A stretch of DNA of 64,000 bases, from IMG/VR virus record IMGVR_UViG_3300049793_000366, positions 122,865-186,864 of that record. One strand, 5' to 3'. The translations under genes were made by a program, and so were the position numbers. Under the pieces are notes generated by a model, which was given only the letters and a program-made list of their open reading frames with translations, made no database searches and had not been told where the DNA came from. Positions 2,003-63,631 of the stretch are shown piece after piece. Each line of letters opens with the position of its first letter. Position 1 is the stretch's first letter. The stretch comes from a virus.

Positions 2003-2075
2003 AATTTGTTTTGTTTTATTGTTTTTTAATTATTGTTTGAGTAGTATATATAAAGATGAACATCTTTAGTTTAGT

Positions 2076-5238: not shown

Positions 5239-6504
5239 ATGAAAGAAGAAAAATATATCGCAGTAATGTTTCCTTACCCATCTGGTAGCGGATTGCACAT
5301 AGGTCACTTTTATAACTATGCTATAATCGATTCATATTGTCGTTATTGGCGATATAAGGGAGTTAATGTATTTCAGCCATTTGGTTATGATTCATTTGGC
5401 TTGCCTGCTGAGAATTACGCGAAGAAAGTAGGTCGAGATCCTAAAGATGTTACATATGAAAACATCGAGAGGTTCAGAGCGCAAATGGATAAGATGGACA
5501 CTCAATATGAAGAGAAGTTGATAACATCTGACCCTTCTTACCAGAAATGGACTCAGTGGTTGTTCACTAAATTGAAAGAACACGGTTTGGTTTATAAAGC
5601 TAAAGGGGATGTGAATTACTGCCCTTCTTGTGAGACAGTATTGGCTCGTGAACAGGTTAAGAATGATAAGTGTGATAGATGTTCATCTGTTGTTGAAACC
5701 AGAAGCTTGGAGCAGTGGTATTTTAAGATAACTGCTTATAAAGACCGTTTGATTAAAAACTTGGATAAGATTGATTATCCACAAAGTACGATTAATGCTC
5801 AAAGAGCTTGGTTGGAGAATTTGCACGATTGGTGTGTTTCAAGACAACGTAGTTGGGGTTGCCCTATTCCAATAGAGGGTGAAACTGATACATTGGACAC
5901 ATTTGTAGATTCATCATTCTATTATATCAGATATTGCGACCCATATAATGACAACGAAATTTGTGCTAAAGATAAGTACAAACAAGTTGATGTTTATGTA
6001 GGTGGTAATGAACACGCTTGTATGCATTTGATTTACGCGAGGTTCATCAATATGTTCTTGTATGATATTGGTGTTGTCTCAGAAGAAGAACCATTTAAAA
6101 GAGTAATACATCAAGGTATGATTTTGAACAATGGTGCTAAAATGGCTAAATCGACTGGTAATGTTATTAATCCAGATGATTATAACTCTGATGAATTGAA
6201 ATTTTATTTGATGTTCATTGGTCACTATTTCGATGGTGGTTCTTGGTCTGACCAAAACATATCTGGTATTAAACGCTTTGTCAATAGATTTAAAGAATGG
6301 ATGTCGAGAGAGGGTGATGAAACGATTGACTTGGTTAAGTTTAAAGAAACTGTATTTGGTTATACAGAAGCTTTTAAATTCAATAAGGTTGTTAGTGAAT
6401 TCATGGTGTTGGTAAATCAGAACAGAACTAAAAATATCACAAAGGAATGTAAGAAGGAGATTGTTGATATTATTAAGATTTATATGCCATCAATAGAGGT
6501 ATAA
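5239..6504 (+). CDS. leuS: leucyl-tRNA synthetase-like protein, minimised (catalytic core only; no CP1 editing domain, truncated C-terminus)
   Basis: HIGH motif (FPYPSGSGLHIGHFYNY) and KMSKS variant (AKMAKSTGN). N-terminal ~220 aa are colinear with E. coli LeuRS (QPFGYDSFGLPAE, KITAYKDRL). The sequence then passes directly to CVSRQRSWGCPIPI where CP1 normally inserts. Only 421 aa. Confidence 0.8.
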   Translation: MKEEKYIAVMFPYPSGSGLHIGHFYNYAIIDSYCRYWRYKGVNVFQPFGYDSFGLPAENYAKKVGRDPKDVTYENIERFRAQMDKMDTQYEEKLITSDPSYQKWTQWLFTKLKEHGLVYKAKGDVNYCPSCETVLAREQVKNDKCDRCSSVVETRSLEQWYFKITAYKDRLIKNLDKIDYPQSTINAQRAWLENLHDWCVSRQRSWGCPIPIEGETDTLDTFVDSSFYYIRYCDPYNDNEICAKDKYKQVDVYVGGNEHACMHLIYARFINMFLYDIGVVSEEEPFKRVIHQGMILNNGAKMAKSTGNVINPDDYNSDELKFYLMFIGHYFDGGSWSDQNISGIKRFVNRFKEWMSREGDETIDLVKFKETVFGYTEAFKFNKVVSEFMVLVNQNRTKNITKECKKEIVDIIKIYMPSIEV

Positions 6505-8036: not shown

Positions 8037-9167
8037 TTAGTATATGTTAAAGTATGACTTAATGGTTTCTATTGCACTATCTTTGTCCTTCGCGAAGTAT
8101 CTTGAAGAACCGGACACTCTTAATATCTTCAAAGAGGTCAAAAGTTTAGTAAATTCTTGAACATCTCTGTTTAAAAGTATAAATCCGTTGGTTCTACACA
8201 TATCAGAAATAGCCTTATTGGATGGTACTCTGTCATTTACCTTAGTTTCGTTCAAGTAAAGAATTTCTAAAATAGCTGAGAATTGACTCCATTTTTGATA
8301 ATTAGGGTCTCTGTCTAATTTCTGCTTCATATCTGAATATGAACGCCATTTATAATATTTGTTAAAATATACACCAACTAAGATAATAATCTCAATCAAA
8401 GTAGATATTATGATGAACATGAATGAATTGTTGCTATTCTCGGACTTTTTATTATCCGCATCTTTGATAAGATTTGCTTCGTGTGTTGTAATCTTATCAG
8501 CTAATTCTTTCTTAACATCATTTTCTTTACCTTCACTTTTTGTTACCTCAGTGCGTAAATCATCCTTTTCCTTCTTAAGGTCACGTATTCTTTGTCGCTG
8601 TTGATAAGTTAATGGGCTTGATGCTTCTAAATCTGTTTGTTCTTTATCTTTTACTTCAATCTTAGATTTATATCCTTTAATTTCTTTTTCGATATCATCA
8701 ATCTTAACATTATATACAGTAGTTAATGAATCTTTAAATTGTGTGATGTTGCTTTTTGCTTGCTCTTCAATAAGAGCAGATTTTGATGAGAATTCTTTTG
8801 CTCCGTTTAGTGAGCAGTAAAAAGAGAATGATATTACCAGTAAACTAAATAATACAAGGTTTAGCACTTCTTTTTTCAGAAGATTTTTAAATCTTAAATA
8901 CTCCATTGAAAACTTATCGAATATATCACGTTTTAGTAGTTCTAAGCCACCAAGTAATATTACTGATATAATCATCACTATTGTTTGGTTCGACTCGGAA
9001 ACAGCGTTTGTGATGATTTTGGATATGAAAAAGAAAGCAAGAAATATAGAAGCAACATTTCCAAATATTGATAGAAATAATAAGACGCGATTAATCATCT
9101 TATATGACTTGTTAAAGTCTTGCTTCTTTATCTGAGTTTCTAAATCCTTAAATTCGTTAATGTTCAT
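8037..9167 (-). CDS. hypothetical membrane protein with coiled-coil region
   Basis: Several hydrophobic helices (FLAFFFISKIITNAV, MIISVILLGG) and a K/E-rich central segment. Confidence 0.5.
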   Translation of the reverse strand: MNINEFKDLETQIKKQDFNKSYKMINRVLLFLSIFGNVASIFLAFFFISKIITNAVSESNQTIVMIISVILLGGLELLKRDIFDKFSMEYLRFKNLLKKEVLNLVLFSLLVISFSFYCSLNGAKEFSSKSALIEEQAKSNITQFKDSLTTVYNVKIDDIEKEIKGYKSKIEVKDKEQTDLEASSPLTYQQRQRIRDLKKEKDDLRTEVTKSEGKENDVKKELADKITTHEANLIKDADNKKSENSNNSFMFIIISTLIEIIILVGVYFNKYYKWRSYSDMKQKLDRDPNYQKWSQFSAILEILYLNETKVNDRVPSNKAISDMCRTNGFILLNRDVQEFTKLLTSLKILRVSGSSRYFAKDKDSAIETIKSYFNIY

Positions 9168-11110: not shown

Positions 11111-14100
11111 TTAGTAGTTGAAAATAAAATCATAACCACCATTATCTTCGAGCCATTGTTCCAGCTCTTCTCGATTCAAGTCTCTGAGCTGTCTACCATC
11201 GGACGTTTTAATCTCAAATATAAAGTCATAATTTGATCCGAGTGAATTATTCTCACCCTCGTCACCAGTAAGCACTAATTTATCAAAGTCAATATCAGCG
11301 ATGTTACTGCTTTCTGGACCAGTATCAGTCATACCACCACTCAATACTTGCATAATTTCCTCTAATGTCATGTCATCCTGGTGTTTCTTACACAATTTTA
11401 TATGTGGTGCTTTTAATATAGCAGCTAATCCCAGTAATGCCCATACAAAGTCAATAAATCCGTTAATTATGGCTTCAATTAAACATAATATGGCATTCAA
11501 GAAGTATAGTGGTTGTTTTAACAACGTTTTAAACTGTGCTTTATTCACTTTGAATAGCTTAGGTATAAACACGATGTCAATAACTTCACTCAAGTCGAAA
11601 ATATAATCATCTGGTAAGTTCTTAAGGTCTTTAACCCATCCTGTAAATTTAGGAATATCGAATTTAATACCAATAAGAGCCAATAGATTCATAGGGTCGA
11701 AAAATTCCATAATCCATTTAAAGCTTAAGAATTCTTTTAATTTACTGACTAAGTTACCAGGATTAAGCTCCTTAAAGAAGTTCATTATATACTCAATAAT
11801 ACCAAAGATAATTTTCAATGGTGTTGTAATTAAGCTTAATAATAAATTAAATAATGGGTGTGGATAGATAGAGAATTTCTTTCTAAGTTTATCGATTTTA
11901 TCTCTTATTAATTTATTACCTCTATCTTTCTTTTGTGCTTCTTCATATAAATCAAGAGCTTGTTGAGCCATATTAGGGTCATCTGGATTGTTGTTTATTA
12001 AATCATCAGCTTGTTTAACCATTGTAGCTATTTCCTCTGATAGATAAGTATATTCATAGTCAATACCATCAACAAATTTACCAGTTGAATACCATTCGGT
12101 TATAACGTCATCGTAGTGTAAACCATTTATGTCAGCACTATATTGTTGTGAACCATTTATACTAGTAGCTTGAGCATTATTATTTGCGTTTGTACCCGCT
12201 TCTTTTATACCGGCTAAATCTTTTAGGTTATCATTTATGAATTTATCAAAAGCGTCCACATCTGGATCTTTTAGTAGTTTAAATATCAAAGTCAACGGTG
12301 GTTTTTTATCGAATAACGCGAATAATTCCCACTTAATACCAAATACAACAGATAAGAATTTAACAGCCGCAGAACCATCCCAAATGAATTTTGGAACACC
12401 AGTTTCAGGATGTATATGAATCCAGTTACTTGCTGGTGTACTCTTAATTTTATTAGTTAAGTCTTTGATATATTTCTCTTTCTGCTTAATATTACCAGCT
12501 AAGTCAGCTTGTTTTATTTTAGCAACATATGTTGGTATCGCTTTAACAGCTTTCTTAAATTCTGGTCCAAATATTTCAAAGTTTTCACCCAATTTCTCTG
12601 TTAGAATATCAAATAAGAAACTAGCGGGATTCTTTATTAAATCCATTAACTGCTTAATCTTAGGAATAAGCTTAGTCATTATATCTGATAAAATAGATAA
12701 GAAAACCTTAACGCCACCAATAGCGTGTGGTCTTTTATACCACATTGGACTTCCACCGCCTCCACCGCCACCTTGATTACCACCACCTGTACTTGGTTCA
12801 CCAGGATTAGCTTCCGGTAAAACTGCTTCTATTAAATAGATTGTTTCTAAGTCATCTTCGTTTGTAGGATATCTGAATATTTGAAATGGGTTTGGTTCTC
12901 CATACCCAGGTGTTTTTAATTCGGATGGTGCGGATGGTATCGCAAACTTAGAAGTAGCATAAGGATCCCCAACTTTAAGAAAGTTATTTGTAACTTGATT
13001 ACCAGCTATAATTTGACCAGAAGGAATATCTGCTGTTACTCTTATTGCATTAACTGGTAAATCACTAATATTTGTTGTTATCGTGGGTGTTTGTATATTA
13101 TTTATACTGACAACTTTTCTCTTATTCATAAGAGGTGATATTGGCCCCTTGTATGATTGCCATTTGACGATAGTATTAGAATCGGTGTAGAATGTGAATC
13201 CATTTGCTGTGTGATTCATATTAGGAACACCAACTTCACTTAATGTAGTTGTTACATATGTTTTCTTAACAGTATCACCTTGTGTTAATTTATAGTTGTT
13301 GAGTGTTACTGAATTGTTTTGATTTAAAGTAGCAACAGTCCAATTAGCTGATACAGTACCCCATGTTGATGGTTTTGTGTTAGTAGTTGTTCCATCATCA
13401 AAATAATATGTGATGACTTTACCGATACTTGAACCAGAACCAACTTTAATAGTTGTAACAGTTTTACCGCTAACTAGTGGTGTTGATAATTGTGCAACTG
13501 AATATGTACCACCAGATACATCTTGTTCTGCTGATGGTGAACCACCAGTTAAGTCATACTTTCTATATTCCCAGTTATCACCGATTTTTTTAATTTCATT
13601 AAATCTTAATCCATCATAGAAACTAAATTGTGTAAAGTCTGATGGTGCTGTTCTTGCCCATACATCAATATTAAAGGTTTTGTCATAATCAAGATTTCTC
13701 TGAAAGTTTAACCCAATATTATCATAAGATACGGAAGTAACATTATACGATGATTGTGTTGCTACTTCTGGGAATGTTTTATATTTTTCAAATAACGTTA
13801 TATCAAATGGTTTGTTATCAGACATTGATATATCATGTGAGTTATGTACAAATCTTAATATTGTAGCTGATTTCTCTGGTGTATTTTGTAAAGTATCATA
13901 AGTAATATTAAATGTAGTATCTACTTTTATAATTCTCATCTCATAATCACCTTCTGGGTCAATCAATAGTGGTTTACCGCCTATTACTTTTTCAACTGGC
14001 ATGAATGGTTGCTTAGGTACTTTTCCTAAGTTGTATTGTGATATTATATTACCAGGAATCCCAGGTAAAAACCCACCAGTTGATATAGCATCTAATTGTT

Positions 14101-29468: not shown

Positions 29469-29660
29469 TGGCGAGGTGGTGAAAGTAGACACTGGTGTTA
29501 TCTGTTAACCAATTGTAGAGAGCCGAAAGATGGGAAGCATTGACTTACTATTCGGGTAGCTTTAATAAACAGACGGAAAGACATTGGTCTTTTATTATCG
29601 AAAGATAGTTGCGAAGGAAACAACACAAATGCGGGTTCAAGCCCTGCTCTCGTCACAAAA
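29469..29660 (+). ncRNA. candidate structured RNA or tRNA 3'-half-like element (T-arm plus acceptor 3' strand)
   Basis: About 200-nt ORF-free, relatively GC-rich island. GCGGG-TTCAAGC-CCTGC resembles a T-arm with a 7-nt T-loop, followed by TCTCGTC-A. GGCGAGG at 29469-75 can pair with that strand including G-U wobbles. No canonical D or anticodon arm could be built. Confidence 0.25.
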
Positions 29661-42700: not shown

Positions 42701-42911
42701 TGTTTAATCTATCAATTTCGGACTTTAAAAATCCAATGGTTGGTAGGTTAAATTGTCTCAAAACGCCATTCTCATCAGTTATTTTTACACTGATTGAGTT
42801 TTCTGTTGTTGTTACTAAATCGTTTAGTTTAGATAGTAATTCTACCGCATTGCGGTTATAACTTATGATTTGTTCTGCTACGGTTGTAAAGGAATTTCTT
42901 ATTGTTGACAT
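39711..42911 (-). CDS. giant structural protein (1066 aa), putative tail or baseplate component
   Basis: Very long ORF with a central coiled-coil segment (QKQKESKLSLQSSLVKD). No enzymatic motif recognised. Confidence 0.55.
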   Translation of the reverse strand: MSTIRNSFTTVAEQIISYNRNAVELLSKLNDLVTTTENSISVKITDENGVLRQFNLPTIGFLKSEIDRLNNNINTLYSIDSAGSIIQPANNKFKKIITADLNREPATIGSLNVVSSFVTNKNWIFDGLLNPMLNIIIDLNGKIENNVRKCQVRRYIVEFAKDDAGNLTNLGQSALNSFNTLFRGQTAIKIDEFDRWHRTTPGITSPNEPNYDEQIFDLDPNELLYNGLFTVIKVEQDTLNRKLWYHLDTIDYLVTGTNEIRQLAHGDEVIVNVDISTTRYKVVEVSTLASNFRVRFERVEGLQPIAVGIGTLKVYSPVVFNKNVKISVGYDERNVVFVKPLNADNHLLAKDWSLGTGYWTNDLRLNSEDPNNGKSMEQFYTENVYDYGEVLKDLVAKKIPNQLAGTPPAPTLNADNFKVVQINKHLTDTPNGNLIKTKHNEQKNLKSEIQQISDSLIAKNKQIKVTRFTSDAQRKQFELEVDKLQKQKESKLSLQSSLVKDILDISKTTSIGKQSPKFSIRGFWTIPDAIITRGTKPQEIVQFRIQYKYTTKDGKEPTTTTFKLKPVKNGENIKTGAFSNWKEIKTDARKRIQDPKTKQYSWTIEDVSDADTPNINQLDIPISPNERVEIRIKSISEVGWPESPVESDWSQIISLDFPDDLNDVMADDQFILKEATQEELKVRMQSELDARGLSTILDGITVVGNKTYVTSSDSILSGFKDDNGTAIDLHGYLKSLQDRVIALEEKIKRAKGELVITMFRNNQPFVIKNNSEITFNVECEDYLDTFSDTGVPTGRVYQNNIYVIKDFLLKIENKSVESPLGLLSSRIYNTSTELYNTAAPQIFWVNELNQLLFSNTTGKTLTQKNNQFAWSVNYSTIEDTSTVTKLADNIGNAFTTNANNSIVPALASTEYNIGYSETTLLSFNNSNTSLLETSKWVENSVSVSSTTKLLTTIHPVVQDLDKLVETNSDKVHTVPGGPNNAINIPINIYFKMNSLDPNAGTGNNYKYIVLNNVTQTVKHIKKLKFFLENEAENRPFTFTIKFNLSRNKVAVQKNLSNLPTGQNISL

Positions 42912-43024
42912 TTCTTCCTGCTAATTTTTTATTATATATAAAAAAAATATGGTTATGTACCATAGTTGGAATCGCTATTTGTGTGGATTTCGCCATTTGG
43001 ATTTTTTTGCTTATATTTGTAATT

Positions 43025-43342
43025 ATGGACAAATCTTGGTCATTAAAGAATAAGCGTGATATTGAAAATTTATTCAGTAAGGGTAAATCATATACATCTG
43101 GTTGCATTGTAGCCAGATATGTGGACTCGACTGAAACTAAGTTTCTATTCGCTGTTAGTACCCGTCTGTATAAGCGCGCCAATAAGAGAAATAGAGTTAA
43201 GAGGTTGATGCGTGTTGCTGTTGCTGAGATAAAGAATACGGTAGTCAACAAACACGTTGCTTTTATCTATATAGATACTGATATTAAATCATTAAGTGAT
43301 ATAAAAAATAGCATAGCTGGTCTTAAATGTCTGAACCCTTAG
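43025..43342 (+). CDS. rnpA: ribonuclease P protein component (RnpA)
   Basis: RNR motif region VSTRLYKRANKRNRVKRLMRVAV (A-x-x-RNR-h-KR). N-terminal SLKNKRDIENLFSKGKS is colinear with Bacteroidetes RnpA. About 105 aa from the internal Met; the 5' extension of the track ORF (42902) overlaps the upstream gene. Ends in TAG. Confidence 0.7.
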   Translation: MDKSWSLKNKRDIENLFSKGKSYTSGCIVARYVDSTETKFLFAVSTRLYKRANKRNRVKRLMRVAVAEIKNTVVNKHVAFIYIDTDIKSLSDIKNSIAGLKCLNP

Positions 43343-44734: not shown

Positions 44735-44768
44735 TATTTGCACAATCAAAAAAAGTGTTTTATATTTG
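44735..44768 (+). promoter_or_regulatory. promoter-like region with TATTTGCACAAT box and TATATTTG (-7 type) element
   Basis: TATTTGCACAAT (44735-44746) recurs verbatim at 48230-48241. TATATTTG lies at 44761-44768. Confidence 0.35.
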
Positions 44769-44893
44769 CAGAGTAAACAATTATTAATATATAAACTATA
44801 AACAAAAAACAAAACAACATGAAGTAGATTAACAACAAAAACGAAACCAAGCTGGTAACTGTAACCAGAGCTGATATAGCTCCTGGGTATCAA

Positions 44894-45184
44894 GTGGTTC
44901 AATCAGCACATTCAATTGCCGATTTCGCGGCTGAATTTCCACAAATTTTCTCCCAGTGGAAGATGGAGTCAAACTCTATCATTTGTCTTTCTGTGAAAGA
45001 TGAACAAGAATTACTAAAACTGTACGATAAGTTAAGAACGCAAGGTGTCTCTGTGGTCAAATTTTTTGAACCCGATATTGACGCTGATACTTCTATTTGC
45101 CTATATGGCACCCCAGAAGTTAGAAAGAAATTATCTAGCCTTCCATTGTCTTTGCGTACAAAAGAATCAGTATTAACAAACTAA
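44894..45184 (+). CDS. PTH2-family peptidyl-tRNA hydrolase (minimal GTG-started ORF; homology extends upstream)
   Basis: VQSAHSIADFA...SIICLSVKDEQELLKLYDKLRTQGVSVVKFFEPDID is colinear with the PTH2 core. The in-frame upstream codons KLVTVTRADIAPGY also match the PTH2 N-terminus, but contain no ATG/GTG/TTG. ATG-AAG-TAG lies at 44819-44827. Confidence 0.55.
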   Translation: MVQSAHSIADFAAEFPQIFSQWKMESNSIICLSVKDEQELLKLYDKLRTQGVSVVKFFEPDIDADTSICLYGTPEVRKKLSSLPLSLRTKESVLTN

Positions 45185-45235
45185 AAATCAAACAACATGA
45201 AAACAACTCACGATTTGTAGATTACATTCAAAGAA

Positions 45236-45796
45236 TTGCTCAGTGATATGAAGAACTGTGAGCAGACCAAAGGTCAGTCAGTTCTACAACATGGTATTTC
45301 TGTAAAGAACTACTTCTTTGATTTAATCAATCATTTAAAACATGGTACACCACTTAAATATACGTGGAAGTTACCGGATTGGGTCTATGAAAACAAAGAC
45401 CAATTATTATCGAGTCTACCTAATGATAGGACTCTAAAACTCTACACCATTCTACATGATTGTGGTAAGCCATATTCTCGTGTAGTTGATAGTGATGGAA
45501 AAGTACACTTCCCTAATCACGCTGAGATATCCTATCAAACATTCAAAAATCTTTATGATGATCCTATTGCCTCTTTTTTAATTAAAAGTGACATGGATAT
45601 ACACACCCTAAAATCTGATGGTGTTGAAGAATTTTCTAAAAATCCATATGCCTTAACGTTATTGTTGAGTGGCTTAGCCGAAATTCATTCAAATGCTCAG
45701 ATGTTTGGTGGTATAGATTCCACGTCCTTTAAAATTAAGTGGAAATGCATCAATCAAAGAGGTAAGCAAATTATTAATCAATTAAACAAAAAATAA
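45236..45796 (+). CDS. HD-domain phosphohydrolase
   Basis: H (LQHGISV), HD (ILHDCGKP) and H..H (HFPNHAE) motifs in order. Confidence 0.45.
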   Translation: MLSDMKNCEQTKGQSVLQHGISVKNYFFDLINHLKHGTPLKYTWKLPDWVYENKDQLLSSLPNDRTLKLYTILHDCGKPYSRVVDSDGKVHFPNHAEISYQTFKNLYDDPIASFLIKSDMDIHTLKSDGVEEFSKNPYALTLLLSGLAEIHSNAQMFGGIDSTSFKIKWKCINQRGKQIINQLNKK

Positions 45797-48282: not shown

Positions 48283-49482
48283 ATGATAATTCAGTCACTT
48301 CTCGATTTAGACTATTACAAACTAACAATGGGTCAATTAGCTTTCTTAAGCTTCCCTGATGTTGAAATTGAAGCCGCCTTTAAAAACAGAAAATCAAATA
48401 TTCGATTAGCGGATATTATCCCGGTTGACCGATTGATATCCGAACTCAATCATGTTAGAACTCTGGTTCTTAGTAAAGAACAGTTAAAGTTCGTTGAAAA
48501 ACAGGGCATATTTAAGCCAGAATACCGAGAGTATCTATATCAGATAAACCGTAGCAATCCTCTATCCGAAGTACGAGTAGAGGTTGTTGATGGTCAATTT
48601 GATGTGAGAACAAAGGGTAAATGGCCTAATGCCATTTTGTGGGAAACAATAGTATTAGCTGTTATTAACGAGCTATATTATGAGTATAAATACCCAAATC
48701 TCTCTTATGATGAGGGTCTTACTAGACTTGCGAATAAGATTAAAATTCTTAAAAAGCATCCACAAATTAAATTCTCTGACTTCGGTACTCGAAGAAGAGC
48801 ATCAAGAACATGGCAAGCACTTGTTGTTAATAAATTAAGACAAGCATTACCTAATCAGTTTCTTGGAACATCGAATGTTCAGTTGGCTATGGATTATAAC
48901 ATAACTCCAATTGGAACATTCGCACATGAAATGCCAATGGTTGCTTCTGGTGTTTGGTATGATACTGATGTTGAATTAAAAGCATCACATGGTAGAGTAC
49001 TTGATATGTGGTATGAGTTATATGATGTTAAATTATCAATTGCTCTTACTGATACATTTGGAACCAAATTCTTCTTTGAAGACTTCGTAGACCGCGCACC
49101 AGTTTGGAATGGTTTACGACACGATTCTGGTGATCCATTTGAATTTGGTCATAAAGTATTAGCTTACTACGCATCACTGGGTATTGATTCTAAAACAAAA
49201 ACTATTGTGTTTAGTGATGGTTTGGATTTAGATATCATCATCCGACTCGAAGCAATATTTGGTAAATTAATTAAATGCGTTTTCGGTTGGGGTACGACTC
49301 TGACAAATGACATTGGGTATGAAACATTATCTATTGTTATGAAAGCCATCCGTGCTAATGGTAATGAATTGGTTAAGCTTTCTGATAACTTAAATAAAGC
49401 TACTGGTTCCGATGCTACTAAATCTCGATACATTAGTGTATTTGGGTATGACAATCAAAAGCGTGAAGAGTGTGTAGTCTAA
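48283..49482 (+). CDS. pncB: nicotinate phosphoribosyltransferase
   Basis: Colinear with E. coli PncB: SLLDLDYYKLTM, FGTRRRAS, GLRHDSGDPFEFG, IVFSDGLDLD, VKLSDN. Confidence 0.85.
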   Translation: MIIQSLLDLDYYKLTMGQLAFLSFPDVEIEAAFKNRKSNIRLADIIPVDRLISELNHVRTLVLSKEQLKFVEKQGIFKPEYREYLYQINRSNPLSEVRVEVVDGQFDVRTKGKWPNAILWETIVLAVINELYYEYKYPNLSYDEGLTRLANKIKILKKHPQIKFSDFGTRRRASRTWQALVVNKLRQALPNQFLGTSNVQLAMDYNITPIGTFAHEMPMVASGVWYDTDVELKASHGRVLDMWYELYDVKLSIALTDTFGTKFFFEDFVDRAPVWNGLRHDSGDPFEFGHKVLAYYASLGIDSKTKTIVFSDGLDLDIIIRLEAIFGKLIKCVFGWGTTLTNDIGYETLSIVMKAIRANGNELVKLSDNLNKATGSDATKSRYISVFGYDNQKREECVV

Positions 49483-52395: not shown

Positions 52396-53250
52396 ATGAA
52401 TACGAAAAAAGTATCAAATCACATCACCAATTGGTTAAAAGATTTTGCATTAAATACTAAACAAAACGGTTACGTTATCGGAGTATCTGGTGGAATTGAC
52501 TCCGCAGTTGTTTCGACACTATGCGCCCGTACTGGATTACCACTTATTGTTGTGAGTATGCCTATTCATCAAGAAGCTAATCAAGTTTCTCGCGCACAAG
52601 AGCATATGGATTGGTTGAAAAAAAATTATCCAAATGTAACACAGTTTGAATTTGACTTAACATCAGTTTATGATTCATTCGTAACTAAGTTAGATGGTAA
52701 AACACATTTTATTTCAAAGCCTGAGCATGATACACAGGTTGCTGATAAAATGTTCTTAACACTTGCGAATACTCGCTCTCGTTTGAGAATGACAACACTT
52801 TATTCACTTGCCGGATTAAACAATATGCTTGTTGCTGGTACTGGTAATAAAGTAGAAGACTTTGGTGTAGGATTCTTCACTAAGTATGGTGATGGTGGAA
52901 TTGATGTATCACCAATCGGTGAGTTGATGAAATCTGAGGTATACATATTGGGTGCTGAATTAGGTATAAACCAAGCAATACTTTCAGCAAGACCTACTGA
53001 TGGTCTTTGGGATGATGGTAGAACAGATGAAGACCAAATTGGTGCTACTTATGATGAACTTGAGTGGGCTATGGGTGTTCAAGAAGAATTGGGAAATAAT
53101 CCTGAGACTTTATACGAAATGAACGAAAGACAAACGATAGTGTGGAATATTTATTTGTCTCGACACACCGCTAACTCACATAAAATGCAAATGCCACCAG
53201 TTTGCTCATTAAAAGGAATTAAATATGATGAAGAAGTTGTTGCACAGTAA
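52396..53250 (+). CDS. nadE: NH3-dependent NAD+ synthetase
   Basis: PP-loop GVSGGIDSAV and GFFTKYGDGGIDVSPIG, colinear with E. coli NadE. Confidence 0.85.
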   Translation: MNTKKVSNHITNWLKDFALNTKQNGYVIGVSGGIDSAVVSTLCARTGLPLIVVSMPIHQEANQVSRAQEHMDWLKKNYPNVTQFEFDLTSVYDSFVTKLDGKTHFISKPEHDTQVADKMFLTLANTRSRLRMTTLYSLAGLNNMLVAGTGNKVEDFGVGFFTKYGDGGIDVSPIGELMKSEVYILGAELGINQAILSARPTDGLWDDGRTDEDQIGATYDELEWAMGVQEELGNNPETLYEMNERQTIVWNIYLSRHTANSHKMQMPPVCSLKGIKYDEEVVAQ

Positions 53251-53822: not shown

Positions 53823-54226
53823 AAAAATTAACAGCTTATGTTGTATTCGAAAAGGGGTACGAGTACAATGACGAAATTTATCACTTACCTGATGTAAGCG
53901 GTGGTGATCCAAAGAGAGTAACATTCTCAAAAGAAGATGCTAAGAATCTTATTACTGTGTTGAGCAGAGATTCATTCAGAGGATTGGATATTGGTAATTA
54001 TACATATGACCTAAAAGATGTAGTTGATGAAATATCTCTAAAAGAGATATTCAAAATCAATAAGTGGAAATGGGATGAAGATAATTTAACTGTTCCTGAG
54101 AAAGCAACCGATGAACAAATCGATGAGGTTATGAAATTTATTGATTTACAGTTTTATGACTTTCAGGAAGTTGAAATGGATATTGCATCAATGCGTAATG
54201 CAAAAATAGAAATAGTAGAAAGCTAA
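53819..54226 (+). CDS. hypothetical protein
   Basis: 135 aa ORF. Confidence 0.5.
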   Translation: MKKLTAYVVFEKGYEYNDEIYHLPDVSGGDPKRVTFSKEDAKNLITVLSRDSFRGLDIGNYTYDLKDVVDEISLKEIFKINKWKWDEDNLTVPEKATDEQIDEVMKFIDLQFYDFQEVEMDIASMRNAKIEIVES

Positions 54227-54762
54227 TGAATTTTAAAAATAAACCGAACCATTGTATTAGTACTGAGAATGGTCAAGTGTGGGTGTCTCGTTCGGTAGCA
54301 GTAGTGGTTACTACCTTACTACGATGTAATGATGAATTATATGCGCTTATGATTAAGCGTGGTGAGAGCGTTCATGCTTCGGGTAAATGGTGTATGCCTT
54401 GTGGTTACTTAGATTGGGATGAAACCGCGTCTGAGTGTGCTGTTAGAGAGATTTGGGAAGAATCTGGATTAGATGTTCTGGGTCTATCTAAATCTGAAAT
54501 TGAACATAATGGTTTACATAATGTGTGGGATTTAAATACTAATCCTGACTTAAATGATAGTCAAGATGTAGCTCTTCATTATTCAATAATAATATCTTCT
54601 GATAACTTTCCTAAGCTTAGTGATGAAAATGCCGAAGAGAATGAGGTAGTTGGCCTTGCGTGGGTTAAACTTTCTGAACTTGGTGAATATAACTTAGCAT
54701 TCCGTCACGACGAAAGAATAAAAAAGTTTTTGGATTACTATGAGAAGATTAAAGTTAAATAA
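54226..54762 (+). CDS. Nudix hydrolase
   Basis: Nudix box GKWCMPCGYLDWDETASECAVREIWEESGLDV (G-x5-E-x7-REUxEExGU). Confidence 0.7.
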   Translation: MNFKNKPNHCISTENGQVWVSRSVAVVVTTLLRCNDELYALMIKRGESVHASGKWCMPCGYLDWDETASECAVREIWEESGLDVLGLSKSEIEHNGLHNVWDLNTNPDLNDSQDVALHYSIIISSDNFPKLSDENAEENEVVGLAWVKLSELGEYNLAFRHDERIKKFLDYYEKIKVK

Positions 54763-54917: not shown

Positions 54918-55355
54918 ATGGAAATTTTAAATAGAAGAGCATATTACGATTATAGCATCATAGAACATTATGAAGCGGGTATTATGTTGACTGGTTCGGA
55001 GATAAAGTCAATACGAGGTGGTGAAGCAAACTTAAATGAAGCATATGTATTCATCAATAACGGCGAGGTATTCGTTAAGAATATGTACATTTCTAAATTT
55101 GAACAATCTTCATATTTGAACCATGAAGAAAAGCGTGATAGAAAATTATTACTTTCTAAAACTCAAATTTTAAAAATTGAAAAATATCTACAAACAAAAG
55201 GTACTGTGATTATACCGATAAAAGTATTTTTCAGCAAACGCTGGGCAAAACTAAAAATCGGAGTTGGTCGTGGTAAGAAAACCTACGATAAGAGAGAATC
55301 GATAAAAGAAAGAGAATCAAAAAGAGAATTGTCTCGACTGAACTCGAAAGTATAG
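54918..55355 (+). CDS. smpB: SsrA-binding protein SmpB
   Basis: Colinear with E. coli SmpB: NRRAYYDY, EAGIMLTGSEIKSIRGGEANL, GEVFV, KLKIGVGRGKKTYDKRESIKERE. Stop is TAG then TAA. Confidence 0.8.
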   Translation: MEILNRRAYYDYSIIEHYEAGIMLTGSEIKSIRGGEANLNEAYVFINNGEVFVKNMYISKFEQSSYLNHEEKRDRKLLLSKTQILKIEKYLQTKGTVIIPIKVFFSKRWAKLKIGVGRGKKTYDKRESIKERESKRELSRLNSKV

Positions 55356-60195: not shown

Positions 60196-61209
60196 TTATT
60201 CAGCGAATGAAAGGTTAAGCTGTTCGATTGATTGTTTCTCTTCAAGACTAATAATAGCCCTTGCTATCATTTTGTCGCATGATATAACGTGTAACTTGTC
60301 GGATTGTTTATTAACAGCTATTGTGTCTGATATAATCAATTCAGTTAATACAGAAGAGTTAAGATTCTCGATAGCATTTCCGGATAGAATACCATGTGTA
60401 GCAATAGCACGTACTGACCTAGCACCATTTTCCATTACCAACTCACTTGCTTTCTTTAAAGTACCTAATGTATCAGCCATATCATCTATGATAACAACAT
60501 TGCGGTCTTTTACATCAGCACCCATTAATTCCATTGAATGAATTTCATTTGGTTTAACTCGGCGTTTATTTATCTGAGCGAAGTGTGCTTCTGGGAAATA
60601 TTTAGCAAAGTCTAATGCTCTTTTTACACCACCTTGGTCTGGTGACATTATTGTTAGATTTTCAAGAGCAAGTGACTTGATGTAGTTTGTGAAAATTTTA
60701 CCACCATTTAAGTGAATAACTGGTATGTTGAAGAATCCTTGAATTGCAGATGCGTGTAAATCAATTGTGATGATTCGTGTTGCTCCACCTCTTTCATAGG
60801 CATCAGCCATAACCCTTGCTCCAATTGATGAACGAAGGTGGTCTACCTTATCTTGACGTGAGTAACCATAATATGGTGTCACGAGTGTTATTTCTTTAGC
60901 ACCAGCTCTTTTAGCAGCATCTAATATCAACATAGTTTCCACGATAGAATCAGAAGAACTTGTTGTTTGTATAATATAGATATCTTTACCACGCACAGAC
61001 TCATTGAAAGTTGGGAATATCTCACCATCTTTGAATTTCTCAATCTTTAAATCACCAAGACCCGTACTTTGTGGTGTCAGTAGACTTGTAGCTTGTTGCG
61101 ACAATACGATTTTATTAATACTATCAGCGAGTGATTCGCTTGATGTTCCAGAAAAAATAGTGAATGTGTTCATAATAGTGGTATTAATTTTTTGATGAAA
61201 TGTTTTCAT
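60196..61209 (-). CDS. prs: ribose-phosphate pyrophosphokinase (PRPP synthetase)
   Basis: Colinear with E. coli Prs: FKDGEIF, YYGYSRQDK, IITIDLHASAIQGFFNIPVIHL, PRPP-binding loop VVIIDDMADTLGTL. Confidence 0.85.
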   Translation of the reverse strand: MKTFHQKINTTIMNTFTIFSGTSSESLADSINKIVLSQQATSLLTPQSTGLGDLKIEKFKDGEIFPTFNESVRGKDIYIIQTTSSSDSIVETMLILDAAKRAGAKEITLVTPYYGYSRQDKVDHLRSSIGARVMADAYERGGATRIITIDLHASAIQGFFNIPVIHLNGGKIFTNYIKSLALENLTIMSPDQGGVKRALDFAKYFPEAHFAQINKRRVKPNEIHSMELMGADVKDRNVVIIDDMADTLGTLKKASELVMENGARSVRAIATHGILSGNAIENLNSSVLTELIISDTIAVNKQSDKLHVISCDKMIARAIISLEEKQSIEQLNLSFAE

Positions 61210-61705: not shown

Positions 61706-62054
61706 TTAGAACTTCATTAAGTTTGTTTCCTCTGTAAATTGACTTATTTGGTTTAGTCGTTTTATATATCTTATTAAGCCAAGTACCTAAGTCTAAAGCT
61801 TGTCTTGAATTATAATAATGTGAAGACCTCTCGCTATAAAATTTGCTATGAATATCTTCTTGTTCATGTTCCTCGAAAGAGTCCCACCATACAGGATCTA
61901 TTAGCATTTTAACCTGAGTACCAAATGTTTTTAATTGCCTTTTCTTCTCACGTCTTCTCGCTCTATCATTATGATATTGAGAATCTTCGTTGTCTTGCTT
62001 TTCTCTCCAACGTTGTACTTGAGGTTCATTTAAATATCTGTTATTTTTCATCAT
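61689..62054 (-). CDS. hypothetical basic protein
   Basis: 121 aa, Arg/Lys/Glu-rich N-terminus. Confidence 0.5.
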   Translation of the reverse strand: MMKNNRYLNEPQVQRWREKQDNEDSQYHNDRARRREKKRQLKTFGTQVKMLIDPVWWDSFEEHEQEDIHSKFYSERSSHYYNSRQALDLGTWLNKIYKTTKPNKSIYRGNKLNEVLSDEKI

Positions 62055-62685
62055 TCAGTTTTGCTTTTTTCCAATTTTTAGTCCAGTGAACATCTGTTTG
62101 TACGTGTCCTTTTCTTACCCACTTCATAACACTTGTTGAAAAATCATCGTTGTGAAATGCGTCAGCTTTTCTTATAACAATACCTTCTCTTTTTCCACCA
62201 AGTATAGACTCTTTTTGTGATAACTCTTCTACGGTGCTTCTGAGTTCTTTCTCATTGGTGATAATACCATTGAAGAGTACGGGTGTTGTCGGAAGGTCTA
62301 AAAGAAATGAATATTCTTCAACAGTAGACCATGGTACCCATATTTCACCATCGCGTACACCGAACATATAAAAATATGATTTTAGATTTGAATATTCGAT
62401 AGAGTGTATACCATACATATTCTCACCGAAGATGTAAGTATCTAAATCTATTGAAAGTTTTATGCGTTGCCATATATCCCACATTGGTCTATCCCAAGCA
62501 TTTTCGGAGTGAGCGGCATGAGAACGTCCGAATACACCGTATCTTTCAAGTGTTGTGTTGGAGCCATCAAGTTTTTCAGTTATGATAACTGGTATATTCA
62601 ATAGTGAATCTACTGAATGTGAAATACGGTCATCCGATGTAGCACCGGGTGAGAACGGTAAGTGGTATGTTCTTGCGTATTTCAT
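62041..62685 (-). CDS. ATP-dependent RNA ligase (Rnl2-like nucleotidyltransferase domain)
   Basis: Motif I EKLDGSN (KxDG), motif III IFGENMYG, motif IV REGIVIRK and motif V VMKWVRKGH, in the same order and spacing as the T4 Rnl2 NTase domain. Confidence 0.6.
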   Translation of the reverse strand: MKYARTYHLPFSPGATSDDRISHSVDSLLNIPVIITEKLDGSNTTLERYGVFGRSHAAHSENAWDRPMWDIWQRIKLSIDLDTYIFGENMYGIHSIEYSNLKSYFYMFGVRDGEIWVPWSTVEEYSFLLDLPTTPVLFNGIITNEKELRSTVEELSQKESILGGKREGIVIRKADAFHNDDFSTSVMKWVRKGHVQTDVHWTKNWKKAKLNDEK

Positions 62686-62748: not shown

Positions 62749-62982
62749 TTAAGCGTCTTTTTCTAATATTTCTGATAATCTTCTATCTCTATCTTCAAGT
62801 CTCTCTTCTATTATCCGTAACCTATCCGCTGCATTTCTATCCATAATTTCATACCAAGTGCCTGATTTATAGCTCATTACACGCTCTGATTTTATATCAA
62901 AGTAACAATCACCGTCCACTGGATTCGTGGGTTGTGATTGGTGGAATGTAACATCCACGAGTGTATAATCACTAATAGACAT
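62749..62982 (-). CDS. hypothetical protein
   Basis: 77 aa ORF. Confidence 0.45.
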   Translation of the reverse strand: MSISDYTLVDVTFHQSQPTNPVDGDCYFDIKSERVMSYKSGTWYEIMDRNAADRLRIIEERLEDRDRRLSEILEKDA

Positions 62983-63631
62983 TTCCTAATCCACCGCTTT
63001 GTGGACCTCCTGTTTGCTTTGGTGTGTCCATTTGAATTACAGCACGAGGTTCTGGTTTAAGTTCAACTGTGCCTGTTTCTTCATCCCATTTAACATCAGC
63101 CTTGTAGTCATTTATGATGGTTTGAACATCATCAGTTTGTGTGCTTTCATCAGTGCTTTCATTATTGTAGATGATTTCACCTAATGATGCTGGTGAATAG
63201 TTTATAGACTTTAATACTTTGTTGTCTTTGGTTCTGAATACAATGAATCTACCTTCTGATTCTTCTATGTGTGCTTCAGTGTTATCCTTCTGTTTATAAA
63301 ACTCAACTGTTTTTTGTGCTTCTTCTCGTGTCTCACAAGATTTGCTCATGTTGCTTCTGTGTACTTCATCGGATAATGCTGGGAATTTATTACCTAATCC
63401 AAATTCTAATACAGCACCGCTTAAAACATATTGTAAGTCAGCTAAGGCATCTGCAATTTCGATGATGTTGTAGTTATTAATTGCTTCTTTTAACTCATCT
63501 AATTCTTCTTGTAAAAGACTAACACGTAAGTCACATCTGTCCTGTGGTGGTATTTGTGGTGTATCTAAGATTGGAGCCTTGTTCGTCTTATGAAACTCAG
63601 CTACCTGATTGAGTGTGTCTAATTTATCCAT
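62972..63631 (-). CDS. MazG-like nucleotide pyrophosphohydrolase domain protein
   Basis: LLQEELDELKEAI...IEIADALADLQYVL matches the MazG/HisE-type EExxE...E/DxxD helical motifs. Ends TAG then TGA. Confidence 0.5.
   Translation of the reverse strand: MDKLDTLNQVAEFHKTNKAPILDTPQIPPQDRCDLRVSLLQEELDELKEAINNYNIIEIADALADLQYVLSGAVLEFGLGNKFPALSDEVHRSNMSKSCETREEAQKTVEFYKQKDNTEAHIEESEGRFIVFRTKDNKVLKSINYSPASLGEIIYNNESTDESTQTDDVQTIINDYKADVKWDEETGTVELKPEPRAVIQMDTPKQTGGPQSGGLGNVY

What the first reader, a model, noticed from the sequence alone, without database searches (positions are those of the whole stretch)
44819..44900. PTH2-type peptidyl-tRNA hydrolase whose conserved N-terminus precedes any canonical start and follows an in-frame TAG (ATG-AAG-TAG)
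The only canonical-start ORF begins at GTG 44894 (MVQSAHS). The 22 in-frame codons upstream (NKNETKLVTVTRADIAPGYQ) align with the conserved PTH2 N-terminal strand (K.VLVVRTDL.MGKGK), so they must be translated. That stretch contains no ATG, GTG or TTG. The nearest in-frame ATG (44819) has an A-rich Bacteroidetes-style context but is followed two codons later by TAG. There are four possibilities. One is TAG read-through or recoding, as in the TAG-to-amino-acid recoding reported for some Bacteroidetes-infecting phages. Another is a non-canonical start (CTG 44852 or ATT 44828). A third is a programmed frameshift. The fourth is a sequencing error. A PTH2 in a phage is itself unusual; it releases peptidyl-tRNA from stalled ribosomes.
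Basis: seen in the sequence. Interest (0 to 1): 0.65.

Follow-up and report, generated by a model that had tools for sequence, protein, structure and literature searches.

The report
Amber-gated tRNA-repair genes in jumbo phages
Two neighbouring phage genes for tRNA-end enzymes each begin with ATG, a few codons and an in-frame TAG stop, so they can probably be made only when the phage's own TAG-reading tRNA is active; the same arrangement recurs in dozens of giant phages, including cultured ones whose suppressor tRNAs had no known target.

Summary
ATG 44819-AAG-TAG 44825 is in frame with a PTH2-fold ORF. The first canonical start of that ORF, GTG 44894, would delete strand beta1 and the start of helix alpha1. 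The next gene, for an HD-domain protein resembling tRNA nucleotidyltransferases, has the same layout: ATG 45197, six codons, TAG 45218.

Among relatives there are 37 distinct PTH2 start contexts (window included) and 25 distinct HD ones. Every gated ortholog carries ATG, 1-6 codons, then TAG, never TAA or TGA. Cultured phages have it too: GAP32, pT24, XacN1, Xoo-sp13 and RsoM2USA. Some orthologs have TAG inside the domain, so TAG must be decoded.

The window's contig encodes a canonical tRNA(CUA) 1.2 kb beyond the window's left edge. In relatives, a tRNA(CUA) usually sits just upstream of the two genes. The 83 kb of this genome that I examined otherwise uses the standard code.

Best explanation: gene-specific amber read-through by the phage suppressor tRNA, acting as a translational gate. 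Sequencing error, frameshift and non-canonical starts are rejected. The inserted amino acid and the purpose of the gate remain inferred. I found no prior description.

The parts
44737..44768 (+). Promoter-like motif of Bacteroidota type, TTTG-N20-TATATTTG, in the 100-nt gap upstream of the PTH2-like gene
   Evidence: Pattern match. The count in the whole window is not above chance (5 found, 4.85 expected). Three of the five matches (5069, 24196, 44737) share TATATTTG and lie just upstream of gene starts. The same motif precedes the gated gene in Tenacibaculum phage pT24. This is an inference, not a demonstrated promoter.
44819..45184 (+). PTH2-like (peptidyl-tRNA hydrolase 2 fold) gene: ATG 44819, AAG, TAG 44825 (codon 3), then 118 sense codons and TAA 45182. 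The read-through product would be 121 aa.
   Evidence: Sequence and translation. Pfam PF01981 32.5 bits, residues 8-104. AF2 pLDDT 91.4. Foldseek to 2zv3, 3erj, 1wn2, 1q7s and 1xty with TM 0.70-0.76. Start-context score of ATG 44819 is at the 81st percentile of 77 true starts, while GTG 44894 scores below all 77.
44825..44827 (+). In-frame TAG, amber gate 1, in the context AAG-TAG-ATT-AAC
   Evidence: Invariant TAG in 37 distinct PTH2 start contexts, window included. The codon after it is ATT in 30 of 37. The TAG columns are invariant in a 12-sequence DNA alignment.
45197..45796 (+). HD-domain gene resembling class II tRNA nucleotidyltransferases: ATG 45197, six codons, TAG 45218 (codon 8), then 191 sense codons and TAA 45794. 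The read-through product would be 199 aa.
45218..45220 (+). In-frame TAG, amber gate 2, in the context TTG-TAG-ATT-ACA
   Evidence: TAG is invariant in 25 distinct HD start contexts; the codon after it is ATT in 19 of 25.
5239..6504 (+). Truncated LeuRS-like class I aminoacyl-tRNA synthetase core (421 aa). It is a possible but unproven partner of the suppressor tRNA.
   Evidence: TIGR00396 leuS 393 bits, below the cut-off of 548; PF00133 and PF09334 also match. In one subclade, homologs lie directly upstream of a tRNA(CUA)-like gene plus a gated PTH2-HD fusion. Elsewhere they sit beside ordinary tRNA clusters, so the link is weak.

Best explanation
Translation of the PTH2-like gene starts at ATG 44819. 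It reaches UAG at codon 3. It continues only when that UAG is decoded by the phage's own amber-suppressor tRNA(CUA), which is encoded on the same contig about 46 kb away, 1.2 kb left of the window. Without the suppressor, release factor 1 ends synthesis after a dipeptide. The adjacent HD-domain gene is built the same way, with UAG at codon 8.

The two TAGs therefore act as translational gates. They make synthesis of two enzymes that resemble tRNA 3'-end enzymes conditional on a processed, charged suppressor tRNA. The rest of the genome is read with the standard code.

Shown by computation:
- the true starts;
- the need for the residues upstream of the canonical starts;
- the strict conservation of TAG;
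- the presence of tRNA(CUA) in the genome and its linkage to these genes in relatives;
- the absence of general recoding.

Inferred:
- that this tRNA is the decoder;
- which amino acid is inserted (unknown);
- the purpose of the gate. It could be a delay or feed-forward switch, or a feedback loop in which the two enzymes act on the suppressor tRNA itself.
For: **1. True starts.** ATG 44819 and ATG 45197 have A-rich contexts scoring at the 79th-81st percentile of 77 bona fide starts and in the top 0.4% of all start-like triplets. GTG 44894, TTG 45236 and ATG 45248 score below every true start.

**2. The residues after the TAG are needed.**
- The GTG start would remove beta1 and part of alpha1 of a confidently modelled Pth2 fold.
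- HD residues 1-9 after the TAG form a helix and are homologous to the linker of PTH2-HD fusions.
- Orthologs L006/L021, L041 and L054 have no ATG, GTG or TTG anywhere in the PTH2 ORF.

**3. Conservation.**
- There are 37 distinct PTH2 contexts (window included) and 25 distinct HD contexts with ATG + 1-6 codons + TAG. TAA and TGA never occur at the gate, although TAA ends 69% of genes in these loci.
- The flanking codons vary while TAG does not.
- 71 of the 120 top database homologs were called as 'M-x-Q-I...'. For the one checked at DNA level, the Q is a TAG.

**4. Internal TAGs inside the domains of some orthologs** require true decoding: L066 PTH2, L012 HD and GAP32 HD.

**5. The decoder exists.**
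- There is a canonical 73-nt tRNA(CUA) on the same contig and strand (ARAGORN; Rfam tRNA 62.4 bits).
- At least 24 of 38 distinct gated loci have a tRNA(CUA) or tRNA(CUA)-like gene on the same strand within 10 kb. It is often the only tRNA there and often less than 1 kb upstream.

**6. Cultured phages** with annotated Sup-tRNA(CUA) have the gate: GAP32, pT24 and XacN1. Xoo-sp13 and RsoM2USA also have the gate; the RsoM2USA paper reports a CUA suppressor in that genome.

**7. No general recoding.** Coverage under the standard code is 94-95%, and TAG ends 13 of 121 genes.

**8. Favourable context.** The base after TAG is A in 56 of 62 contexts. From my own knowledge of E. coli work (Bossi 1983; Miller and Albertini 1983), that is the context most favourable for amber suppression.
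Against: - There is no protein-level evidence: no peptide spanning the TAG has been seen.
- In this genome the tRNA(CUA) is 46 kb from the genes, not adjacent.
- TAG still terminates about 11% of genes. Back-up stops after TAG are not enriched across the clade (12.1% versus 10.7% after TAA). Efficient constitutive suppression would therefore be costly, so suppression must be partial, timed, or helped by context.
- About a third of gated loci show no detectable tRNA(CUA) within 10 kb. It may lie elsewhere in those genomes, as it does here.
- The identity of the tRNA is unresolved: 76% to a phage tRNA-Lys, 72% to tRNA-Trp.
- About 100 kb of the 185-kb contig was not examined.
Confidence: 0.78

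Rival explanations
1. Mini-ORF plus re-initiation or a non-canonical start. ATG-AAG-TAG would be a two-codon leader ORF, like the lambda bar minigenes that stress Pth. The real protein would initiate at the next codon (ATT 44828) or at CTG 44852 by termination-reinitiation.
For: The codon after TAG is a near-cognate start (ATT, ATA, ATC or CTG) in 55 of 62 contexts. ATT 44828 shares the A-rich context and scores at the 25th percentile of true starts. Two-codon minigenes have a known functional link to peptidyl-tRNA hydrolase (own knowledge: lambda bar and pth).
Against: - Only TAG is ever used, although re-initiation should work with TAA, which is the commonest stop.
- The +1 codon is AAC, AAT, ACC, GTA or GTT in several orthologs, including GAP32, XacN1 and Xoo-sp13.
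- Internal TAGs within the domains of L066, L012 and GAP32 HD cannot be bypassed by re-initiation.
- It does not explain the tight linkage with tRNA(CUA) genes.
- ATT 45221 has a poor context score of -4.2.
Confidence: 0.08
2. Genome-wide or block-wise TAG reassignment (code 15), as in crAss-like and Lak phages. The two genes would simply be the recoded genes that fall inside this window.
For: Phage TAG recoding with suppressor tRNAs is established. About 100 kb of the contig was not inspected. Gene callers that allow code 15 already translate these TAGs as Q.
Against: - Across 82.9 kb, the standard code gives 94-95% coverage and treating TAG as sense gives no gain. TAG ends 13 of 121 genes.
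- Long ORFs of 1457, 1320 and 1066 aa contain no TAG.
- In the 20-kb loci of 13 non-redundant relatives scanned systematically, the ATG-few-codons-TAG pattern is confined to these two families.
- The position of the TAG (codons 3-8) is conserved, not scattered.
Confidence: 0.04
3. The TAG is itself the start codon, read by an initiator-like tRNA(CUA).
For: Engineered initiator tRNA(CUA) can start translation at UAG in E. coli (own knowledge). The TAG sits where an ungated ortholog (L013 HD) starts.
Against: - An in-frame ATG with a top-scoring start context lies 1-6 codons upstream in every gated case.
- Some orthologs have internal TAGs.
- The contig's tRNA(CUA) has a paired G1-C72 and lacks three consecutive G-C pairs at the bottom of the anticodon stem. 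Those are the bacterial initiator hallmarks (own knowledge).
Confidence: 0.03
4. Sequencing or assembly error, or a decaying pseudogene.
For: There is only one assembly of this exact contig.
Against: The same TAG occurs in the adjacent gene, in 60+ distinct orthologous contexts from independent metagenomes, and in finished genomes of cultured phages. The ORFs are otherwise intact and fold confidently.
Confidence: 0.01

Closest known systems
Stop-codon (TAG to Gln, code 15) recoding in crAss-like, Lak and other gut phages (Borges et al., bioRxiv 10.1101/2021.08.26.457843; Peters et al., PMC9523058)
   Same: A phage-encoded tRNA(CUA) lets TAG be read as sense in phage genes inside a standard-code host. 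A regulatory role for the dependence on the suppressor has been proposed.
   Different: In those phages, many late, structural and lysis genes carry scattered in-frame TAGs, and TAG is largely abandoned as a stop. Here only two genes carry it, at codons 3-8. The rest of the genome is standard code, and TAG still ends about 11% of genes.
bldA tRNA-Leu(UAA) and rare TTA codon control of adpA and other genes in Streptomyces (context in PMC10732093)
   Same: Expression of a few specific genes is made conditional on one dedicated tRNA through a single codon in the ORF.
   Different: That case uses a rare sense codon in a cellular genome. This one uses a stop codon with a suppressor tRNA in a virus, so release factor competes with the tRNA.
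prfB (RF2) autoregulation through an early in-frame UGA (own knowledge)
   Same: An in-frame stop early in the ORF of a translation-machinery gene senses the activity of a translation component.
   Different: prfB escapes by a +1 frameshift and senses the release factor that it encodes. Here the frame is unchanged, and the escape is by a suppressor tRNA encoded elsewhere in the genome.
Synthetic amber-codon plus inducible suppressor tRNA gates (e.g. PMC7969014)
   Same: The design is the same: an amber codon near the N-terminus of the target gene, so that output requires both the mRNA and the suppressor tRNA.
   Different: Those circuits are engineered. This appears to be a natural, conserved version.
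Orphan suppressor tRNA(CUA) genes of standard-code jumbo phages (XacN1, PMC5852040; RsoM2USA, PMC8504454)
   Same: These are the same kind of genomes. XacN1 and RsoM2USA themselves carry the gated genes.
   Different: The XacN1 paper states that no target gene could be identified, and the RsoM2USA paper names none. The gated PTH2-like and HD genes were annotated from internal starts or not at all.
Lambda bar minigenes and host Pth (own knowledge)
   Same: A two-codon ORF (ATG-NNN-stop) is functionally linked with peptidyl-tRNA hydrolase.
   Different: bar minigenes use TAA or TGA, are not in frame with a downstream domain, and are toxic elements, not the 5' end of a pth gene.

Membership tests
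PTH2 peptidyl-tRNA hydrolase (Pfam PF01981) | Sequence match above the curated threshold | tested here: met
   PF01981 32.5 bits against a cut-off of 23, residues 8-104 to profile 2-107. The NCBIfam equivalog models are far below their cut-offs (27.7 versus 126; 26 versus 82), so this is a distant member.
PTH2 peptidyl-tRNA hydrolase (Pfam PF01981) | Pth2 alpha/beta fold over the full length | tested here: met
   AF2 pLDDT 91.4. Foldseek probability 1.0 and TM 0.70-0.76 to 2zv3, 3erj, 1wn2, 1q7s and 1xty.
PTH2 peptidyl-tRNA hydrolase (Pfam PF01981) | Canonical active-site residues: the Lys of the 'GK' motif and the Asp of the 'DAG-T' motif, as I recall them for S. solfataricus Pth2 | tested here: inconclusive
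   The profile alignment to PDB Pth2 proteins places the nearly invariant Tyr21 (G-Y-Q) where canonical enzymes have G-K. Gln25 and His28 are conserved. An E-P-D...T motif (E81, P82, D83, T88) is invariant, but its equivalence to the catalytic Asp was not established. Hydrolase activity is therefore plausible but unproven.
HD-domain metal-dependent phosphohydrolase; HD-domain region of class II tRNA nucleotidyltransferases | H...HD...D metal-ligand motif and HD fold | tested here: met
Genome-wide code 15 (TAG = Gln) phage | Many conserved genes interrupted by TAG, with TAG rare or absent as a terminator | tested here: not met
   94-95% coding coverage with the standard code; TAG ends 13 of 121 genes; only two genes carry an in-frame TAG in 82.9 kb.
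Amber suppressor tRNA | Cloverleaf tRNA with a CUA anticodon in the same genome | tested here: met
   ARAGORN finds a 73-nt tRNA(cta) at L020 c[12908-12980], about 1.2 kb left of the window start on the window's + strand. Rfam tRNA scores 62.4 bits against a gathering score of 29.
Pyrrolysine system (tRNA-Pyl, PylS, PylBCD) | tRNA-Pyl architecture (3-nt variable loop, 6-bp anticodon stem, no G18G19 or T-psi-C) plus pylS and pylBCD genes | tested here: not met
   The contig's tRNA(CUA) has a standard D loop with GG, a GGTTCGAAC T loop and a 5-bp anticodon stem. ARAGORN's 'Pyl' label reflects only the anticodon. No PylS-like gene was seen among the called genes of the 83 kb. The defining features are from my own knowledge.
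Programmed read-through stimulated by a downstream RNA structure (SECIS- or PYLIS-like, or viral read-through signals) | A conserved RNA secondary structure 3' of the stop codon | tested here: not met
   RNAalifold on 12 orthologous gates predicts 0 conserved pairs. Only the linear context TAG-ATT-A is conserved.

The most novel reading that the evidence does not exclude
The suppressor tRNA(CUA), the PTH2-like hydrolase and the HD enzyme form a self-contained, mobile three-part circuit. It is found in jumbo and huge phages of Bacteroidota and Proteobacteria, and possibly Actinobacteria. Two enzymes that may act on tRNA 3' ends would be synthesised only through the suppressor's own codon. This would give either a homeostat that caps amber suppression (an analogue of RF2 autoregulation) or a positive-feedback switch.

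These two genes would then be the previously unidentified natural targets of the 'orphan' suppressor tRNAs of standard-code jumbo phages. In some lineages the tRNA is structurally non-canonical and may be charged by a phage-encoded minimal LeuRS-like synthetase, that is, a natural orthogonal pair.
Probability: 0.3. Interest if true: 0.9.

Novelty: new variant of a known kind. Interest (0 to 1): 0.8.

Why it matters
**A candidate answer to an open question.** Suppressor tRNA(CUA) genes are common in jumbo phages that otherwise use the standard code. The XacN1 paper states that no target gene could be found (PMC5852040). Other papers leave the function of such suppressor tRNAs open (PMC8504454, PMC8386662). 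This analysis gives concrete, conserved targets.

**A natural regulatory design.** An amber codon sits at codons 3-8 of two tRNA-maintenance genes. This is the design that synthetic biologists build on purpose.

**An annotation error.** In GenBank records of cultured phages these genes are truncated, split or missing.

**It can be tested.** The module is present in cultured phages: GAP32, CBB, BF, fHe-Yen9-04, pT24, XacN1, Xoo-sp13 and RsoM2USA.

**Possible new tRNA scaffolds.** The unusual tRNA(CUA) forms and the minimal LeuRS-like enzyme could be of interest for genetic-code expansion.

Tried and rejected
- **Near-identical phage DNA in INPHARED:** none found.
- **tRNA in the window:** ARAGORN finds none. 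The suppressor was found only after walking the source contig.
- **Back-up stops after TAG as a signature of suppression:** 4 of 13 in this contig, but no enrichment across the clade, 12.1% versus 10.7%. Not used as evidence.
- **A third read-through gene (1839-2069 plus 2076-2837, same frame across TAG 2067):** rejected. The upstream part is low-complexity with no homologs, and the real start is ATG 2112.
- **A conserved RNA structure at the gate:** none. The hairpin at 44852-44868 is not conserved.
- **Complementarity between the 'CTTAAT' linker of non-canonical tRNA(CUA) genes and the mRNA 'ATTAA' after the TAG:** noticed but rejected as necessary, because genomes with canonical tRNA(CUA), including this one, keep the same mRNA context.
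- **A dedicated LeuRS-like/tRNA(CUA) pair:** adjacency holds in only one subclade; elsewhere the enzyme sits by ordinary tRNA clusters. Kept only as speculation.
- **Inferring the inserted amino acid:** from aligned residues at internal TAGs, the positions are variable loops (Q/E/K/N/D/T; P). From tRNA similarity, the answer is ambiguous between Lys and Trp. Unresolved.
- **Defence-system libraries (PADLOC):** no hits.
- **Independent assembly of the same phage:** P0001 could not be located.

Full report
**1. The observation**

The sequence reads ...aaacaaaacaac ATG AAG TAG ATT AAC AAC AAA AAC GAA ACC AAG CTG GTA..., with ATG at 44819 and TAG at 44825. The frame stays open to TAA 45182-45184. 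The first ATG, GTG or TTG after the TAG is GTG 44894, 22 codons downstream.

Pfam PTH2 (PF01981, 32.5 bits, cut-off 23) aligns residues 8-104 of the post-TAG translation to profile positions 2-107. I collected homologs and aligned 36 sequences (A2). The AlphaFold2 model has pLDDT 91.4, with beta1 at residues 8-14 and alpha1 at 19-36. It superposes over its full length on archaeal Pth2 and human Bit1 (2zv3, 3erj, 1wn2, 1q7s, 1xty), with TM 0.70-0.76 and probability 1.0. The GTG is residue 23, so a GTG-start protein would lack beta1 and the start of alpha1.

**2. A second case next door**

The following gene reads ...aaatcaaacaac ATG AAA ACA ACT CAC GAT TTG TAG ATT ACA TTC... ATG is at 45197 and TAG at 45218. 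This is in frame with the ORF that the standard code starts at TTG 45236, and it ends at TAA 45796.

PHROG 14850 (270 positions) spans both the PTH2 C-terminal part and this protein. Real PTH2-HD fusions exist in relatives.

**3. Where translation starts**

I built a position weight matrix from the 25 nt upstream of 77 unambiguous ATG starts of this contig.

| Candidate start | Score | Standing |
|---|---|---|
| ATG 44819 | 5.96 | 81st percentile of true starts; top 0.3% of all start-like triplets |
| ATG 45197 | 5.55 | 79th percentile of true starts |
| CTG 44852 | 1.8 | 29th percentile of true starts |
| ATT 44828 | 1.5 | 25th percentile of true starts |
| ATG 45248 | -3.9 | below all 77 true starts |
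| ATT 45221 | -4.2 | below all 77 true starts |
| GTG 44894 | -6.96 | below all 77 true starts |
| TTG 45236 | -10.3 | below all 77 true starts |

(All.) The ATGs in front of the TAGs are therefore the initiation sites.

**4. Conservation**

The search for related loci with the HD protein, the PTH2 protein and a PTH2 alignment returned loci L001-L067, all fragments of IMG/VR contigs of 16-476 kb.

- Among them there are 37 distinct PTH2 start contexts (window included) and 25 distinct HD start contexts with ATG + 1-6 codons + TAG + ORF.
- The commonest spacing is one codon between ATG and TAG (36 of 62).
- The stop is always TAG, never TAA or TGA, although TAA ends 69% of genes in these loci.
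- The next codon is ATT in 49 of 62 contexts, and the next base is A in 56 of 62.
- In a 12-sequence DNA alignment the TAG columns are invariant while the neighbouring codons vary.
- PTH2-HD fusions carry one gate, at their N-terminus.
- Three orthologs have no ATG, GTG or TTG anywhere in the PTH2 ORF.
- Of the 120 best database homologs, 71 were called 'M-x(1-6)-Q-[IVL]...'. For P0014 ('MNNQIK') the DNA is ATG AAC AAC TAG ATT AAA, so the Q comes from a gene caller that allows code 15.
- Distant orthologs either lack the gate (L063/L064) or carry the TAG inside the domain. Examples are L066 PTH2 ('..SLENT[TAG]LFENW..'), the second TAG in L012 HD, and GAP32 HD. An internal TAG can be tolerated only if it is decoded.

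**5. The decoder**

The window has no tRNA gene that ARAGORN finds in its default mode. The window is the reverse complement of positions 30209-94208 of Logan contig SRR35783291_526751 (185,316 bp).

About 1.2 kb beyond the window's left end, on the window's + strand, lies a canonical 73-nt tRNA with anticodon CUA (ARAGORN; Rfam tRNA 62.4 bits).

In relatives, a tRNA(CUA) or tRNA(CUA)-like gene lies on the same strand within 10 kb in at least 24 of 38 distinct gated loci. It is commonly 80-1000 nt upstream of the PTH2-like gene and often the only tRNA in 20 kb. Three more were seen by eye.

Many of these are structurally odd. Some have an acceptor stem, a roughly 9-nt 'CTTAAT' linker and a 5-6 bp D-like hairpin. 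Many have a 31-39 mismatch. Some are minimal forms of about 67 nt. Standard tools miss them.

**6. No general recoding**

In 82.9 kb of this genome (the window plus both flanks), the standard code gives 94-95% coding coverage, and treating TAG as sense gives no gain. Stops are TAA 94, TGA 14 and TAG 13. A scan for ATG-few-codons-stop-long-ORF finds only these two convincing cases, and the same holds in 13 non-redundant relatives. One further candidate at TAG 2067 was dismissed.

**7. Cultured phages**

tblastn against INPHARED finds the two genes in the 634-735 kb uncultured huge phages LR745206, LR756501-4 and others. It also finds them in isolates.

| Phage | What is there |
|---|---|
| Cronobacter phage GAP32 | PTH2-like gene ATG GCA CAA TAG AAT... 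behind a Shine-Dalgarno sequence; GenBank starts it at an internal TTG. HD gene split by an internal TAG. Annotated Sup-tRNA(CUA) 2.3 kb away. |
| Tenacibaculum phage pT24 | PTH2-HD fusion ATG AAA TAG ATA..., with tRNA-Sup 2.6 kb upstream. |
| Xanthomonas phage XacN1 | HD-PTH2 fusion (reverse domain order), ATG AAG TAG ACC. |
| Xanthomonas phage Xoo-sp13 | HD-PTH2 fusion, ATG AAA AAA TAG AAT. |
| Ralstonia phage RsoM2USA | HD gene ATG AAA AGT TAG ATT. |

The XacN1 paper reports two CUA suppressor tRNAs and states that no target genes could be identified. The RsoM2USA paper also leaves the target open.

Six literature searches found no description of this gate. Neither did the relevant passages I read in five papers.

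**8. Mechanism**

The best-supported reading is gene-specific amber read-through by the phage tRNA(CUA). Initiation is at the upstream ATG. At the UAG, RF1 and the suppressor compete. Full-length PTH2-like (121 aa) and HD (199 aa) proteins are made only when the suppressor wins.

No conserved RNA structure accompanies the gate. The conserved linear context UAG-A(UU) is, from my knowledge of the E. coli literature, the context most favourable for suppression.

Both gated proteins resemble enzymes that act on tRNA 3' ends: one on the ester bond, the other on the CCA end. In some phages they are fused, and they are physically linked to the tRNA. The neighbourhood here also encodes an RNase P protein-like ORF. 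Elsewhere in the window or on the contig are SmpB, a minimal LeuRS-like enzyme, an RNA ligase, and a CCA-type nucleotidyltransferase with a 2H phosphoesterase.

Why the gate exists is inference. The simplest view is conditional or delayed expression coupled to a functional suppressor tRNA. A more interesting possibility is a feedback loop in which the enzymes act on the suppressor itself.

The phage PTH2 family has Tyr where canonical Pth2 has the 'GK' lysine, so its chemistry may differ from classical Pth2.

**9. Rivals**

- **Re-initiation or a non-canonical start.** Disfavoured by the exclusive use of TAG, by +1 codons that cannot start translation, by internal TAGs and by the tRNA linkage.
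- **Genome-wide code 15.** Not met in 83 kb.
- **A TAG-initiating tRNA.** Contradicted by the conserved in-frame ATG and by elongator-type tRNA features.
- **Sequencing error.** Untenable given the conservation.

**10. Verdict**

The finding is real. It extends to a second gene and to a conserved module found across many jumbo phages. It is a new variant of a known kind: phage suppressor-tRNA read-through, confined here to two early-ORF gates. It can be tested directly in cultured phages.

Noticed in passing
window 29470-29656 (+): A tRNA-like gene in an intergenic gap. Rfam finds nothing. Similar insert-bearing tRNA-like genes occur in L004 (7532-7702, 8208-8338, 8483-8757). Intron-containing tRNAs in jumbo phages are mentioned in PMC13037316.
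   Followed up: partly
window 5239-6504 (+): A phage-encoded minimal LeuRS-like class I synthetase (421 aa). Its length and the profile stretch matched suggest it lacks the editing and C-terminal domains. Homologs (57-82% identical) are common in large IMG/VR phage contigs, often beside tRNA clusters. In one subclade they lie directly upstream of a tRNA(CUA)-like gene plus a gated PTH2-HD fusion.
   Followed up: partly
L020 13099-13164 (-), about 1.35-1.42 kb left of the window start on the window's + strand: A second tRNA-like gene about 120 nt upstream of the tRNA(CUA). Rfam tRNA scores 53 bits, but it is only 66 nt long and has no proper anticodon arm. ARAGORN misses it.
   Followed up: no
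L004, L006, L008, L010, L011, L024, L029, L040, L041, L043, L046, L050, L051, L058, L062 (coordinates); L082 ~7846-7913, L088 7843-7909, L095 ~8073-8141: A family of non-canonical tRNA(CUA)-like genes. Features are a conserved 'CTTAAT' linker of about 9 nt between the acceptor stem and a 5-6 bp D-like hairpin, frequent C:A, C:C or A:C mismatches at positions 31-39, one 8-nt anticodon loop (L010), and minimal forms of about 67 nt. Most are missed by ARAGORN defaults, and the Rfam gathering threshold also missed the three it was tried on (L006, L010, L011).
   Followed up: partly
window 54918-55355 (+): A phage-encoded SmpB (NCBIfam equivalog, 186 bits). The gene ends TAG-TAA, a tandem stop. No tmRNA was found in the window.
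   Followed up: no
window 43025-43342 (+), within ORF 42902-43342: A called 105-aa product hits Pfam Ribonuclease_P (RnpA, the protein subunit of RNase P). It lies 1.5 kb upstream of the gated genes, and the ORF ends in TAG.
   Followed up: no
L112 (Mycobacterium phage Alice, NC_028986) 1489-1869 and 2119-2191: The annotated peptidyl-tRNA hydrolase gp150 is preceded by ATG-TAG directly in front of its annotated GTG start. A 'tRNA-suppressor (cta)' lies 250 nt downstream. The Shine-Dalgarno spacing fits the GTG, so whether this is a gate is ambiguous.
   Followed up: partly
L108 (Ralstonia phage RsoM2USA) 3440-4567: ORF92 (186 aa) ends at the very TAG that gates the HD gene, and it is in frame with that gene. 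Suppression could therefore also produce an ORF92-HD fusion protein.
   Followed up: no
L063 10592-10667; L012 7959-8034; L018 4331-4446: Other suppressor-type tRNAs occur in related phages: anticodon UUA (ochre type) next to an ungated PTH2 gene in L063, and UCA (opal type) in L012 and L018.
   Followed up: no
window 48283-49482, 52396-53250, 54226-54762, 60196-61209 (-), 62041-62685 (-), 62972-63631 (-): A set of nucleotide, NAD and RNA-repair genes: NAPRTase, NAD synthase, NUDIX, PRPP synthetase, RNA ligase and a PRA-PH pyrophosphohydrolase. The identifications come from precomputed Pfam hits on the called genes.
   Followed up: no
window 1839-2069 and 2076-2837 (+): Two ORFs in the same frame, separated by TAG 2067, looked like a third read-through gene. 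The upstream part is low-complexity with no homologs, and the gene most likely starts at ATG 2112.
   Followed up: yes
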